IMG/VR virus record: IMGVR_UViG_2534682158_000021
Source of the DNA: a virus
Lineage: Duplodnaviria > Heunggongvirae > Uroviricota > Caudoviricetes > Peduoviridae
DNA: 32,660 nt
Direction: 5' to 3' (one strand)
Made by a program: the position numbers and the translations under genes. A model generated the notes under the pieces. The model was not told the origin of the DNA, made no database searches, and worked only from the letters and a program-made list of their open reading frames with translations. Shown in pieces: positions 20,484 through 24,589 of the stretch. How positions within the stretch are numbered: position 1 is the stretch's first letter; each line of letters begins with the position of its first letter.

Positions 20484-23243
20484 ATGAGCACGAAATTTAA
20501 AACCGTTATCACTACTGCCGGAGCCGCGAAGCTGGCAGCCGCCACTGTCCCCGGCGGGAAAAAAGTAAACCTGTCTGCAATGGCCGTGGGTGACGGTAAT
20601 GGCAAATTGCCGGTGCCGGATGCCGGTCAGACGAAGCTGGTGCATGAGGTCTGGCGTCATGCCCTGAATAAAGTCAGCGTGGATAATAAGAATAAAAACT
20701 ATATCGTGGCTGAACTGGTTGTTCCGCCAGAAGTGGGCGGCTTCTGGATGCGTGAGCTTGGTCTGTATGACGATGCCGGAACACTGATTGCGGTATCCAA
20801 CATGGCAGAAAGCTATAAGCCAGAACTGGCTGAAGGCTCCGGACGTGCGCAGACCTGCCGCATGGTTATTATTCTCAGCAACGTGGCGTCCGTTGAGCTG
20901 AGTATTGATGCCAGCACAGTGATGGCGACGCAGGATTACGTCGATGACAAAATCGCAGAGCATGAGCAGTCCCGCCGCCATCCTGACGCCACGCTGACAG
21001 AAAAAGGTTTTACTCAGTTAAGCAGTGCAACAAACAGCACCAGTGAAAAGCAGGCTGCAACGCCAAAGGCAGTAAAAGCAGCCTATGACAATGCAGAGAA
21101 ACGTCTGCAGAAAGACCAGAACGGTGGCGATATTCCAGATAAGGACGCTTTTCTGGACAATGTTGGCGTTACCAGCCTGACGTTTATGAAAAACAATGTC
21201 GAAATGCCGCTTGATGCTGATCTGAATACATTTGGTCCCGTTAAGGCTTATCTGGGGATCTGGTCTAAAGCTACCTCAACTAACGCAACACTGGAGAAAA
21301 ATTTCCCGGAAGATAATGCTGTCGGTGTGCTTGAGGTTTTTGCTGCCGGCAATTTTGCAGGTACGCAACGCTTCACCACGAGAGACGGCAATGTATACAT
21401 ACGCAGACTCGCCAATAAGTGGAATGGCTCTGATGGTCCGTGGGGCATATGGCGTCACACTCAATCAGCTACCCGCCCTTTGAGTACGACTATAGACCTG
21501 AATACGCTTGGAGCCGCCGAACATCTTGGTTTATGGCGTAACAGTAGCTCGGCTATAGCTTCATATGAACGCAATTATCCAGAGGAAGGCGGCTTTGCTC
21601 AGGGGATGCTTGAGATCCTCGAAGGCGGAAATTATGGAAGAACGCAACGTTATACCACTCGCCGTGGAAATATGTATGTCCGCTGCCTTGCGGCAAGATG
21701 GGATGCATCAAATCCGCAGTGGGAACCGTGGTTAAGAGTCGGTCATCAGTCAGAGAGTCGTTATTACGAAGGTGATTTGAATGATGTAACCTCACCAGGT
21801 ATTTACAGCGTTACAGGTAAAGCGACCAACGGTCCAGTACTGGACGGAAACGGCGTGACTGTACTCGGCATTCTGGAAGTGTTGAGGCGGTTTGATGGTG
21901 TTAATGTATGGCAGCGTTATACAACTGCCGGAACAGGTACAACCCTTAAAGGCCGCACCTTTGAGCGCGTCTTTACCGGCAGCTCATGGAGCGAATGGCG
22001 GGAAGTCTACACCTCGTATTCACTTCCCCTGAATCTGGGTATCGGCGGTGCTGTGGCAAAGCTCACCAGCCTGGACTGGCAGACCTACGATTTTGTGCCG
22101 GGCAGTCTGATAACCGTTAGGCTGGATAATATGACCAATATTCCCGACGGTATGGACTGGGGCGTCATTGATGGCAACCTGATAAACATCGCAGTTGGTC
22201 CGAGTGATGATTCCGGTACGGGGCGCTCAATGCATGTATGGCGCAGCACTGTAAGTAAAGCGAACTACCGCTTTTTTATGGTGCGTATTTCAGGAAATCC
22301 GGGAAGCCGCACGATCACAGCAAGACGAGTACCAATCATTGACGAAGCCCAGACATGGGGCGCGAAACAGACATTCAGTGCTGGCCTTTCTGGTGAACTG
22401 TCCGGCAATGCGGCGACAGCAACAAAGCTGAAAACAGCCCGTAAAATTAATAACGTTTCGTTTGATGGAACATCAGATATTAACCTGACGCCGAAAAATA
22501 TTGGTGCATTTGCTTCAGGAAAAACAGGAGACACCGTTGCGAATGATAAAGCCGTTGGGTGGAACTGGAGTAGCGGAGCCTATAACGCAACTACTGGTGG
22601 GGCATCAACGTTAATTCTTCATTTTAATATCGGTGAAGGAAGTTGTCCCGCCGCCCAGTTCCGCGTTAATTATAAGAACGGCGGTATTTTTTATCGTTCT
22701 GCTCGTGACGGTTACGGATTCGAGGCTGACTGGTCTGAGTTTTATACCACAACGCGAAAACCTACAGCGGGAGATGTCGGTGCACTGCCGTTATCTGGTG
22801 GTCAATTGAATGGTGCTCTGGGTATAGGAACATCCAGTGCTCTTGGCGGTAATTCGATTGTTTTGGGTGATAATGACACGGGCTTTAAACAAAATGGTGA
22901 TGGTAATCTGGATGTTTATGCTAATAGCGTCCATATTATGCGTTTTGTCTCGGGAAGTATTCAAAGTAATAAAACCATAAATATTACGGGGCGTGTTAAT
23001 CCCTCGGATTACGGTAACTTTGATTCCCGCTATGTCCGGGATATCCGGCTTGGTGGTGCTGCCACATACAAACCTGCGAACAATGGCATGACATGGACAC
23101 ATCATGCACCGTCCGGGTGTGTATATTCCGGCATTATTGTTCAGGATACCGGCTCAAACTCTGCCGATAACATTGGTGGTGTATATTACAGGCCGGTTCA
23201 GAAATACATTAACGGGACATGGTATAACGTGGCGCAGGTATAA
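20484..23243 (+). CDS. H: Tail fibre protein H (enlarged, mosaic C-terminus)
   Basis: 919-aa ORF, longer than the ~669-aa P2 gpH as I remember it; N-terminal region is typical of the conserved tail-fibre anchor; three tandem ~85-aa repeats in the middle; glycine-rich divergent C-terminus. Confidence 0.88.
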   Translation: MSTKFKTVITTAGAAKLAAATVPGGKKVNLSAMAVGDGNGKLPVPDAGQTKLVHEVWRHALNKVSVDNKNKNYIVAELVVPPEVGGFWMRELGLYDDAGTLIAVSNMAESYKPELAEGSGRAQTCRMVIILSNVASVELSIDASTVMATQDYVDDKIAEHEQSRRHPDATLTEKGFTQLSSATNSTSEKQAATPKAVKAAYDNAEKRLQKDQNGGDIPDKDAFLDNVGVTSLTFMKNNVEMPLDADLNTFGPVKAYLGIWSKATSTNATLEKNFPEDNAVGVLEVFAAGNFAGTQRFTTRDGNVYIRRLANKWNGSDGPWGIWRHTQSATRPLSTTIDLNTLGAAEHLGLWRNSSSAIASYERNYPEEGGFAQGMLEILEGGNYGRTQRYTTRRGNMYVRCLAARWDASNPQWEPWLRVGHQSESRYYEGDLNDVTSPGIYSVTGKATNGPVLDGNGVTVLGILEVLRRFDGVNVWQRYTTAGTGTTLKGRTFERVFTGSSWSEWREVYTSYSLPLNLGIGGAVAKLTSLDWQTYDFVPGSLITVRLDNMTNIPDGMDWGVIDGNLINIAVGPSDDSGTGRSMHVWRSTVSKANYRFFMVRISGNPGSRTITARRVPIIDEAQTWGAKQTFSAGLSGELSGNAATATKLKTARKINNVSFDGTSDINLTPKNIGAFASGKTGDTVANDKAVGWNWSSGAYNATTGGASTLILHFNIGEGSCPAAQFRVNYKNGGIFYRSARDGYGFEADWSEFYTTTRKPTAGDVGALPLSGGQLNGALGIGTSSALGGNSIVLGDNDTGFKQNGDGNLDVYANSVHIMRFVSGSIQSNKTINITGRVNPSDYGNFDSRYVRDIRLGGAATYKPANNGMTWTHHAPSGCVYSGIIVQDTGSNSADNIGGVYYRPVQKYINGTWYNVAQV

Positions 23244-23246
23244 TTT

Positions 23247-23774
23247 ATGCAGCATTTAAAAAATATTACGGCGGGTAATCCAAAAACGGTTGAACAATAT
23301 CAATTGACAAAGGGTTTTGATGTTGTCTGGTTTTTTTCAGAAGATGGTAAGAACTGGTACGAAGAACAAAAGTATTTTGCTGATGACACGATAAAAATAG
23401 CGTACGACAAAGATAATATTATCCGCTATGTGGAAAAGGATGTGACAGCTATCAGACCGGATGGATTAAGTGTTGTTGAAGTGGCGGATATTACTGCTAA
23501 CCGACGGGCGGACATTTCAGGGGGCTGGATGTTTAAGGACGGCAAAGTGATTAAACGCATTTATACGGCAGAGGAATTGCTGCAGCAGGCAGAAAGCCGG
23601 AAAGCCAGACTTCTTGCAGATGCTGAATCCGTGATTTTGCCGCTGGAGCGCGCGGTCAGACTGAACATGGCAACAGATGAGGAGCGTAGCCGACTGGATG
23701 CATGGGAGCGTTACAGCGTTCTGGTCAGTCGTGTGGATCCTGCAAATCCTGAATGGCCGGAAATGCCGCAATAA
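23247..23774 (+). CDS. G: Tail fibre assembly chaperone G
   Basis: 175-aa ORF directly after H; size and position match P2 gpG. Confidence 0.85.
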
Positions 23775-23995: not shown

Positions 23996-24589
23996 ATGTT
24001 TACTAAGCGACGATTAAAAAATATTAACTGGGAGGCAAGTTCAGTGATACTTGCTATGGTTCTCTTTGTTGGAAATATATTTTATACAAATCATCGTGAT
24101 GATATAAGCATGGAGGCTGAGAGGGACAGTATCAGAACAATGTTTGCATATGAAATCGCTAATAACCATCGCGCTCTCACTTTTCTTGATAAAACGAGAT
24201 ATATTGGCTTTGACGAAAATTCGGAGCATTTTGTTGGCGAGCCTTTTGCCATTAATGTCAAATCATTAGGGGGGCCTCGCTTACAGATTGCATTAAACCA
24301 GACTGATAAAGTGTTTAAATCCTACTTCAGCGAATTAAGTAAGCTTGATAAAGAGGATGTTACTCTTCTTATGGACTATTACCATGAGCAAAGCATCCTG
24401 CTGGAGCGTGTAAAATCTACGTTACAGAAGATGAAAAGTGGTAATGATATTAAAGTTGATATTGATGGTTACTTATTAGAAGAACACTTCATGAATGAGC
24501 TTAATCTTTCTAATATTTTGCTTAAACGCTATAGCCATTTGTTGTCACAACACGCCAAAGAACATAAAACAAAAGATTTACATAATTGA
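23996..24589 (+). CDS. Uncharacterised cargo protein with N-terminal hydrophobic segment, in the G-FI (Z/fun) variable locus
   Basis: 197-aa ORF with AAGGTG Shine-Dalgarno about 8 nt upstream; strongly AT-rich compared with flanking G and FI; residues ~14-30 (SSVILAMVLFVGNIFY) look like a transmembrane helix; no recognisable catalytic motif. Confidence 0.6.
   Translation: MFTKRRLKNINWEASSVILAMVLFVGNIFYTNHRDDISMEAERDSIRTMFAYEIANNHRALTFLDKTRYIGFDENSEHFVGEPFAINVKSLGGPRLQIALNQTDKVFKSYFSELSKLDKEDVTLLMDYYHEQSILLERVKSTLQKMKSGNDIKVDIDGYLLEEHFMNELNLSNILLKRYSHLLSQHAKEHKTKDLHN

What the first reader, a model, noticed from the sequence alone, without database searches (positions are those of the whole stretch)
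21219..22015. Tail fibre H contains three tandem ~85-aa repeats and a divergent C-terminal receptor-binding region
The H product is 919 aa. Residues about 246-510 form three consecutive repeats, each starting DLN(T/D) and sharing the pattern G..(F/Y)..GN(F/Y)..(T/R)QR(F/Y)TTR.GN.Y.R......W..W, followed by a glycine-rich distal region unlike the conserved N-terminal anchor. This modular expansion suggests receptor-specificity switching by domain shuffling, and the repeats are a substrate for recombination.
Basis: seen in the sequence. Interest (0 to 1): 0.45.

Follow-up and report, generated by a model that had tools for sequence, protein, structure and literature searches.

The report
Three knob domains in P2-like tail fibre
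The three repeats in this phage tail-fibre gene are real, but they are three copies of the well-known "pyocin knob" fibre domain, and the same arrangement occurs in many related phages and hundreds of E. coli prophages, so the finding is ordinary.

Summary
ORF 20484-23243 (+) encodes a 919-aa P2-type tail fibre H. It has DLN-initiated units at aa 246-337, 338-430 and 431-516.

- **Repeat support:** K1 and K2 are clearly related (45% identity, z=33 against shuffles). K3 is marginal as a single sequence (p about 0.03) but is tied to K1 and K2 by profile comparison (hhalign 92%, E 6e-7).
- **What the unit is:** it is the "pyocin knob" domain. A profile of the units matches Knob2 of the solved R1/R2 pyocin fibres by sequence (6cl5, E 1e-5). 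The AlphaFold model matches knob-bearing fibres (5efv, 6cl5; probability 1.0). NCBI already names close homologues "pyocin knob domain-containing protein".
- **How common it is:** the architecture is standard. It occurs in at least 28 Peduovirus records, about 276 of 5426 E. coli genomes, roughly 180 T-even gp37 proteins (T6: 53% identity over 465 aa) and Yersinia phage L-413C gpH. Three tandem knobs is the commonest count in the family.
- **Shuffling:** classical P2 H has no knobs, so this H is a known mosaic. Among relatives, the knobs and the C-terminal tip (which co-varies with chaperone G) change in sharp blocks. This supports exchange of whole domains between alleles.
- **Internal recombination:** the repeats share no exact word longer than 8 nt, so they are not a substrate for recombination within the gene.

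Interest is low; this is already known.

The parts
20484..23243 (+). Gene H: 919-aa P2-type tail fibre, a mosaic
   Evidence: ORF; phrog_381 tail fibre E 1.5e-202; 99.4% nt identity to annotated tail fibre genes of Peduovirus records
20484..20936 (+). aa 1-151: N-terminal baseplate-attachment ('tail-collar fibre') domain
   Evidence: PF12571 E 3e-57; 84% identical to classical P2 H aa 1-204; 99-100% among relatives
20991..21113 (+). aa 170-210: phage tail fibre repeat, shared with Mu gpS
   Evidence: PF03406 E 6e-21; matches Mu S residues 110-176 in 5yvq/8ju3
21219..21494 (+). Knob 1 (aa 246-337)
   Evidence: 45% identity to K2, z=33.5; five-strand pattern in the AF2 model; knob profile hits the R1/R2 pyocin fibre
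21495..21773 (+). Knob 2 (aa 338-430)
   Evidence: Same as K1
21774..22031 (+). Knob 3 (aa 431-516), a divergent copy
   Evidence: hhalign to K1 92%, E 6e-7, and to K2 71%; same strand pattern; replaced on its own as a block in phages YpM_22 and P24E6b
22032..22343 (+). aa 517-620: beta-rich globular domain ('K4'), not detectably a knob by sequence
   Evidence: No similarity to K1-K3; AF2 pLDDT 80-92 across the core; no significant PDB fold match, best E 0.12; conserved with T-even gp37
22344..22493 (+). aa 621-670: shaft or linker segment with a fibre repeat motif (AKQTFSAGL...)
   Evidence: 66% identical to T6 gp37 aa 63-106; 98-100% conserved among relatives
22494..22787 (+). aa 671-768: Mu S/S'-like distal domain (gp37_C)
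   Evidence: 8ju3 residues 320-417, domain i-E 3.7e-48; PF12604 E 4.6e-5
22788..23018 (+). aa 769-845: glycine-rich segment shared with classical P2 H and T-even gp37
   Evidence: 18.2% Gly; aligns to P2 H from aa 472; weak PF20744 hit; 6f45 S16 gp37 E 2e-4
23019..23240 (+). aa 846-919: C-terminal tip domain, presumed primary receptor-binding tip and chaperone-dependent
   Evidence: Matches the C-termini of Mu S (5yvq 425-503) and of the phiTE short tail fibre (9cuy, E 1e-17); occurs as two allele classes, 99% or 48-50% identical
23247..23774 (+). Gene G: tail fibre assembly chaperone
   Evidence: PF02413 Caudo_TAP E 4.6e-34; 75% identical to P2 G; co-varies with the H tip allele, 97-99% against 73-78%

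Best explanation
The repeats are three tandem 'pyocin knob' domains in the shaft of a mosaic P2-type tail fibre.

Shown:
- Each unit of about 90 aa is a small antiparallel beta-sheet domain, homologous to Knob1/Knob2 of the R-type pyocin fibre.
- The three-knob block, together with the following 104-aa domain, is a module shared with the T2/T6-type distal long-tail-fibre protein gp37.
- The module sits between the P2 baseplate anchor (aa 1-210) and a Mu-S/P2-like distal end (aa 671-919). Chaperone G is needed for that end.
- Among relatives, the knobs and the tip are the variable parts. They are exchanged between alleles as whole-domain blocks.

Inferred from the solved pyocin and Staphylococcus phage fibres:
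- In the H trimer, each set of three chains forms one globular knob. The sheets are buried on the threefold axis and the variable loops face outward.
- The knobs help trimer folding, set fibre length and stiffness, and probably provide accessory low-affinity sugar (LPS) contacts. These would add to the primary binding by the C-terminal tip and so contribute to host range.

The three copies arose by ancient duplication, before the module spread between P2-like and T-even phages. They are not a recent expansion.
For: - Repeat homology.
- Sequence-profile match of the unit to solved pyocin fibres. 6cl5 chain positions 140-209 are roughly residues 457-526, which lies in Knob2 (445-528) as defined in PMC6116203; E 1.1e-5. 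Also 6cl6 (E 2.4e-4), 6ct8 (E 6e-4), Pa193 gp47 9b45 (E 1.5e-4) and P68 fibre 6iab.
- Foldseek of the AF2 model (pLDDT 76.8). The top hits are 5efv (phi11 gp45), 6cl5 (R1 pyocin fibre), 9euf, 6v8i and 6iab, with probability 0.99-1.00. 5efv (phi11 gp45) is a structure that PMC6116203 itself lists as knob-bearing, and 9euf (phi812) is from the same phage group as its gp144 of phage K.
- NCBI and UniRef name close homologues 'pyocin knob domain-containing protein'.
- Family survey: 2565 cluster representatives at E<=1e-3. Copies per protein among the best 150 range from 1 to 8, with a mode of 3 (52 of 150).
- Shared module with T6 gp37: aa 105-561 against H 226-688, 53% identity, E 2e-166, with three knobs at the same spacing. 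About 180 T-even records carry the block at roughly 61% identity.
- Mosaic structure against classical P2 H.
- Block-wise variation of K1, K2, K3 and the tip with conserved flanks.
- Co-variation of the tip with G.
- In R pyocins, Knob2 and the C-terminal domain are the most variable parts and bind LPS mimics (PMC6116203).
Against: - No Pfam or NCBIfam model covers aa 246-620. Family assignment therefore rests on my own profile, on Foldseek and on database names.
- A K3-only profile does not reach significance against PDB sequences (best knob-bearing hits E 0.65-3.9).
- Global TM-scores in Foldseek are low (0.20-0.26), because a monomer model of a multi-domain fibre has arbitrary domain orientations. 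No per-knob superposition was run against solved (PDB) structures; the only single-knob-length alignments are to predicted BFVD models.
- The trimeric state and any sugar binding are inferred, not tested.
- In the only mutational study of a P2-like fibre that I read (P88, a different H type), host range mapped to a distal hypervariable region, not to a knob (PMC5285337).
Confidence: 0.85

Rival explanations
1. The knobs are purely structural spacers and folding nuclei. They set fibre length and rigidity and have no part in receptor recognition. Their variability reflects relaxed constraint on surface loops, or hitch-hiking with recombination that is selected at the tip.
For: - Buth et al. stress the unusual multi-core structure of the knob and its likely role in trimer folding (PMC6116203).
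- Host range in P2-like P88 mapped to a distal region (PMC5285337).
- The tip and chaperone form their own co-varying cassette.
- Yersinia phage YpM_22 has K1 and K2 99-100% identical to this E. coli phage but a different tip.
Against: - Variation is concentrated in the knobs in discrete blocks, while the neighbouring aa 517-620 and 621-845 stay 95-100% identical (apart from aa 517-620 in L-413C, 70%). That pattern is unlike relaxed constraint and does not follow the tip allele: P24E6b has the same tip but a different K3.
- In pyocins, Knob2 is the most diverse region and binds LPS-mimicking ligands.
- A knob-like domain of the K1F endosialidase binds sialic acid.
Confidence: 0.3
2. One reading: the tandem repeats are a recombination substrate within the gene. 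Unequal crossing-over between them expands or contracts the array and so switches specificity.
For: - Knob copy number differs between family members, from 1 to 8.
- Some distant homologues align with only two of the three knobs (P0095, P0100, P0105, P0106).
Against: - The longest exact nucleotide word shared by any two units is 8 nt, and DNA identity is 57-62%.
- All six Peduovirus H genes of this type that I inspected (909-919 aa), and T6 gp37, have exactly three knobs in the same order. No close relative shows a copy-number change.
- K1-K2-K3 orthology is kept across P2-like and T-even phages, so the duplication is old.
Confidence: 0.03
3. The third 'repeat' is not homologous to the first two. 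It only shares a few motif residues (DLN, QRYTT, W..W) by chance or by convergence.
For: - Single-sequence Smith-Waterman scores are only z=2.4, p about 0.03.
- The K3-only profile is not significant against PDB knob proteins.
Against: - Full-length, in-register profile-profile alignment (hhalign 92%, E 6e-7).
- A K1-only HMM finds K3 at i-E 3.6e-5.
- Identical order and spacing of five strands in the model.
- The non-significant K3 hits are nevertheless knob-bearing fibres (P68, F2 pyocin, R1 pyocin).
Confidence: 0.05

Closest known systems
Knob1/Knob2 of the R-type pyocin fibre of Pseudomonas aeruginosa (PDB 6CL5, 6CL6, 6CT8; Buth et al. 2018, PMC6116203); NCBI's 'pyocin knob' domain
   Same: - Unit size of about 85-93 aa.
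- A five- to six-stranded antiparallel sheet.
- Tandem arrangement in the middle of a contractile-tail fibre, between the N-terminal anchor and a distal binding domain.
- Sequence-profile and fold matches.
- Knobs and the C-terminal domain are the variable parts.
   Different: - Three copies instead of two.
- The copies are more similar to each other (45% for K1/K2, against 20% for the pyocin knobs).
- The distal end is Mu-S/P2-like with a Caudo_TAP chaperone, rather than the pyocin iron-containing shaft and lectin-like foot.
gpH of Yersinia phage L-413C (AY251033) and the 909-919-aa H proteins of other Peduovirus phages (P22H1, P24C9, P24E6b, vB_YpM_22, and others)
   Same: - Same gene position and the same domain order, including three knobs.
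- 76-99% overall identity.
- The mosaic nature of L-413C gpH relative to P2 H was already described (Garcia et al. 2008, as summarised in PMC7460101).
   Different: Only allelic differences in individual knobs and in the tip/G cassette.
T2/T6-type gp37, the distal long-tail-fibre subunit of T-even phages (T6 AF052605; RB33, IP008, JK23)
   Same: Contains the same K1-K2-K3 plus 104-aa-domain module. T6 aa 105-561 is 53% identical to H aa 226-688, and the knobs lie at the same spacing.
   Different: - A different N-terminus (it joins gp36, not a P2 baseplate).
- A different distal end, with a separate gp38 adhesin gene.
- The AKQTF fibre motif precedes the knobs in T6 but follows them in H.
Classical phage P2 gpH (NC_001895, 669 aa)
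   Same: - N-terminal anchor (84% over aa 1-204).
- Glycine-rich segment and tip (39%).
- Chaperone G (75%).
- Same operon order.
   Different: No knob domains at all (the knob HMM finds nothing). The middle 265 aa are unrelated.
Phage Mu tail fibre gpS/S' (PDB 5YVQ, 8JU3)
   Same: The PF03406 repeat near the N-terminus, a distal domain (H aa 671-768 against S/S' 320-417, very close) and the C-terminal tip.
   Different: The PDB sequence search aligned no Mu S/S' residues to the knob block (aa 246-620).

Membership tests
Pyocin knob domain (R-type pyocin fibre Knob1/Knob2 fold) | Sequence homology to the knob domains of solved R1/R2 pyocin fibres | tested here: met
   A profile of 20 knob units hits 6cl5 (E 1.1e-5, chain positions 140-209, i.e. 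Knob2), 6cl6 (2.4e-4) and 6ct8 (6.3e-4). A weak second stretch falls on Knob1. A K3-only profile is not significant.
Pyocin knob domain (R-type pyocin fibre Knob1/Knob2 fold) | Fold: a unit of about 80-95 aa built on a five- or six-stranded antiparallel beta-sheet with variable loops | tested here: met
   The AF2 model has five strands at equivalent positions in each of K1, K2 and K3. Foldseek top hits are 5efv, 6cl5, 9euf, 6v8i and 6iab with probability 0.99-1.00. Single-knob local matches in BFVD reach rmsd 1.5 A over 93 columns. Global TM is low because the model is a multi-domain monomer.
Pyocin knob domain (R-type pyocin fibre Knob1/Knob2 fold) | Occurs, often in tandem, within a phage or tailocin receptor-binding fibre | tested here: met
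   Three in tandem inside gene H. Among the 150 best family representatives, 145 have at least 2 copies and the mode is 3.
Pyocin knob domain (R-type pyocin fibre Knob1/Knob2 fold) | Three chains assemble into one trimeric knob with the sheets on the threefold axis | not testable with these tools
   Only monomer prediction was available.
Pyocin knob domain (R-type pyocin fibre Knob1/Knob2 fold) | Binds saccharide or LPS ligands on its outer loops | not testable with these tools
   Needs binding assays. The only indirect evidence is that variation concentrates in the knobs.
P2-type tail fibre gpH | N-terminal tail-collar fibre domain (PF12571) homologous to P2 H | tested here: met
   PF12571 E 3e-57; 84% identity to P2 H aa 1-204.
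P2-type tail fibre gpH | Gene order V-W-J-I-H-G, with a Caudo_TAP assembly chaperone immediately downstream | tested here: met
   ORFs; Baseplate_J, Tail_P2_I and Caudo_TAP hits; matches the P2 annotation.
T-even gp37 (distal long tail fibre subunit) | gp37 N-terminus that joins gp36, and a gp38 adhesin or chaperone gene downstream | tested here: not met
   Similarity to T6 gp37 is limited to T6 aa 63-106 and 105-561. The flanking genes are P2 I and G, not 36 and 38. H shares a module with gp37 but is not a gp37.

The most novel reading that the evidence does not exclude
Each of the three knobs may be an independently exchangeable specificity cassette that reads a different part of the LPS. 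Under this reading, host range in this fibre type is set by the combination of three knob alleles plus the tip/G cassette, and alleles move between temperate P2-like and virulent T-even phages through conserved junction motifs (…YYEGDLN… and …SYSLPL…). The block-wise replacement of K3 alone, with 95-100% identical flanks, is compatible with this. No binding or host-range data were available to test it.
Probability: 0.25. Interest if true: 0.35.

Novelty: already known. Interest (0 to 1): 0.12.

Why it matters
It matters little as a discovery. The protein is 99-100% identical to database entries already named after this domain. The fibre type has been in GenBank since T6 gp37 and L-413C gpH, and horizontal exchange of tail-fibre segments between P2, Mu and T-even phages is textbook.

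There are two practical uses. First, the domain map (anchor, three knobs, a 104-aa domain, Mu-S-like domain, tip plus G) gives clean fusion points for engineering P2-type or pyocin-type fibres. Second, the knob-by-knob allelic pattern suggests a simple swap experiment to find out whether knobs contribute to host range.

Tried and rejected
- **Pfam and NCBIfam scans** of H, of the repeat block and of 20 individual knob units gave no model covering aa 246-620. PHROGs gave only generic 'tail fibre' families.
- **Self-BLAST of H** with composition-based statistics listed only the diagonal. The units had to be compared pairwise.
- **Is aa 517-620 a fourth knob?** There was no sequence or profile similarity. 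A separate AF2 model (core pLDDT 80-92) gave no significant PDB match (best E 0.12). Knob-bearing 9euf_5 and 6eu4 appeared only at rank 17 and 34, with TMq 0.40-0.46. I leave this open.
- **K3-only profile against the PDB:** not significant.
- **Direct DNA repeats inside H:** only imperfect matches of 16 nt or less at the QRYTT motif. The intragenic recombination idea was rejected.
- **Is this simply classical P2 H?** Rejected, because P2 H lacks the knob block.
- **PADLOC scan of the neighbouring cargo ORF:** nothing.
Full report
**1. What is at the coordinates**

The window is a P2-like (Peduovirus) phage genome. Its late tail operon reads V, W, J, I, H, G. Baseplate_J, Tail_P2_I and Caudo_TAP hits flank the ORF in question, and the order matches the annotated P2 record. 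ORF 20484..23243 (+) encodes 919 aa, with PF12571 at aa 1-151 and PF03406 at aa 170-210.

I call the units K1 (246-337), K2 (338-430) and K3 (431-516).

**2. Are the repeats real?**

K1 and K2 are unambiguous:
- 45% identity, blastp E 1e-25.
- Smith-Waterman z=33.5, with 0 of 2000 shuffles reaching the score.

K3 is a divergent copy:
- As a single sequence it is only marginal (z=2.4, about 3% of shuffles).
- Profiles built from homologues align it full-length and in register (hhalign K1-K3 92%, E 5.9e-7; K2-K3 71%, E 3.6e-5).
- A K1-only HMM finds it at i-E 3.6e-5.
- The AlphaFold model (aa 236-639, mean pLDDT 76.8) gives each unit the same five strands at equivalent positions.

The next 104 aa (517-620) show no similarity to the knobs.

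**3. What the unit is**

A profile of 20 non-redundant units (A3) matches the solved R1 and R2 pyocin fibres by sequence: 6cl5 at E 1.1e-5, 6cl6 at 2.4e-4 and 6ct8 at 6.3e-4. It also matches the Pa193 gp47 fibre (9b45) and the P68 fibre (6iab) (the phage for 9b45 is identified).

The matched stretch of 6cl5 (chain positions 140-209, about residues 457-526) lies in Knob2 (445-528) as defined by Buth et al. A weak second stretch lies in Knob1 (PMC6116203).

Foldseek of the model returns phi11 gp45 (5efv), the R1 pyocin fibre (6cl5), the phi812 and 80alpha baseplates and the P68 fibre as the top hits, with probability 0.99-1.00. Buth et al. named 5efv (phi11 gp45) as knob-bearing, and the phi812 baseplate belongs to the same phage group as the gp144 of phage K that they also named.

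NCBI and UniRef already name close homologues 'pyocin knob domain-containing protein'. A recent tail-fibre atlas lists the 'Pyocin knob' as a mobile pseudo-domain found across phage families (PMC12143355).

Pfam and NCBIfam have no model for the unit.

**4. How common the architecture is**

- The H gene is 99.3-99.4% identical to the tail fibre genes of two Peduovirus genomes (four records: Peduovirus P2 OU784746/NC_070906 and P22H1). In all, 28 phage records cover at least 80% of it.
- The repeat block is found in 367 of 5426 complete E. coli genomes, 276 of them at 80% coverage or more.
- By tblastn, 225 phage records hold the whole 275-aa block. About 180 of these are T-even phages at roughly 61% identity, annotated as the distal long-tail-fibre subunit.
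- T6 gp37 aa 105-561 aligns to H aa 226-688 at 53% identity (E 2e-166) and has three knobs at the same spacing. L-413C gpH (913 aa) has the same layout at 76% identity.
- An exhaustive profile search finds 2565 cluster representatives at E<=1e-3. Among the best 150, the number of knob stretches per protein runs from 1 to 8, with 3 the commonest (52 of 150).

Three tandem knobs is therefore the standard form.

**5. Mosaic structure**

Classical P2 H (669 aa) shares only aa 1-204 (84%) and aa 770-919 (39%) with this H, and it has no knob. The parts of this H are:
- The P2 anchor.
- A PF03406 repeat also present in Mu S.
- The T2/T6-type module: three knobs plus the 104-aa domain.
- A segment very close to Mu S/S' (aa 671-768 against 8ju3 residues 320-417).
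- A glycine-rich segment shared with P2 H and S16 gp37.
- A tip similar to the C-termini of Mu S and of the phiTE short fibre.

The hybrid nature of this H type relative to P2 was described for L-413C by Garcia et al. 2008, as summarised in PMC7460101.

**6. Domain shuffling: which part holds**

I compared this H with six Peduovirus H proteins of the same type.

| Region | Identity to this H |
|---|---|
| N-terminus | 99-100% |
| aa 517-620 | 95-98% (70% in L-413C) |
| aa 621-845 | 96-100% |
| K1 | 51-100% |
| K2 | 66-99% |
| K3 | 47-100% |
| Tip (aa 846-919) | 99% or 48-50% |

K1, K2 and K3 vary independently of one another.

At the DNA level the transitions are sharp. Phage vB_YpM_22 is 98-100% identical up to about aa 420, 65-78% across K3, 95-100% from about aa 541 to 840 (87% in the aa 521-540 window), and then 35% in the tip. 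Partial E. coli proteins show the same knob-by-knob mosaic.

Chaperone G co-varies with the tip allele: 97-99% when the tip is the same, against 73-78% when it differs.

So whole-domain exchange between alleles is supported. This parallels the R pyocins, where Knob2 and the C-terminal domain are the most diverse parts.

Recombination between the repeats within one gene is not supported. The longest shared exact word is 8 nt, DNA identity is 57-62%, and no close relative differs in copy number.

**7. Mechanism**

Shown: domain identity, position in the fibre, and the pattern of variation.

Inferred from solved homologues (PMC6116203):
- The three chains of the H trimer form three successive globular knobs, with buried sheets and exposed variable loops.
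- The knobs aid trimer folding and set fibre geometry.
- They may supply accessory LPS contacts that complement the tip. The tip is folded with the help of G.

Whether the knobs affect host range is untested. The one mutational study I read on a P2-like fibre, of a different H type, mapped host range to a distal region (PMC5285337).

**8. Verdict**

The structure is an ordinary and already annotated domain arrangement, so novelty and interest are low. The only open points are whether aa 517-620 is a degenerate fourth knob and whether individual knob alleles alter specificity.

Noticed in passing
window 23996-24589 (+): A 197-aa ORF of low G+C (about 0.40, against 0.55 in the flanks) with an N-terminal hydrophobic helix. 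It sits between G and the sheath gene FI, the slot where P2 carries fun(Z) and P24C9 carries NUDIX and phosphatase genes. An ORF of identical length annotated 'hypothetical' sits in this slot in P24E6b, and a similarly annotated ORF (cut off at the locus end) in P24B2; the sequences were not compared. There is no Pfam, NCBIfam or PADLOC hit. It is probably accessory cargo (a moron, or a candidate defence or exclusion gene).
   Followed up: partly
window 22032-22343 (H aa 517-620): A confidently predicted beta-rich domain (core pLDDT 80-92) that follows the three knobs. It is conserved with T-even gp37 and has no significant match in the PDB (best Foldseek E 0.12). Weak, untrustworthy resemblances to knob-bearing 9euf_5 and 6eu4 suggest it might be a degenerate fourth knob.
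   Followed up: partly
window 23019-23240 (H tip) and 23247-23774 (G): The C-terminal 74 aa of H occur as two allele classes among relatives (99% or 48-50% identical). Chaperone G co-varies with them (97-99% against 73-78%, with the N-terminal half most affected). The tip and chaperone therefore travel as one cassette, with the breakpoint near aa 845.
   Followed up: yes
window 22371-22502 (H aa 630-673) against L002 (T6 gene 37, aa 63-106): A 44-aa fibre motif (AKQTFSAGL...NLTP), 66% identical between the two proteins, lies after the knob module in H but before it in T6 gp37. The shared pieces are therefore arranged in a different order in the two fibres.
   Followed up: no
window 7501-9000 and 1-3000: Two further low-G+C stretches (0.38-0.46, against about 0.55-0.60 in the structural genes). 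The first also has strong positive GC skew. They may be additional horizontally acquired or non-essential regions of the prophage and were not examined.
   Followed up: no
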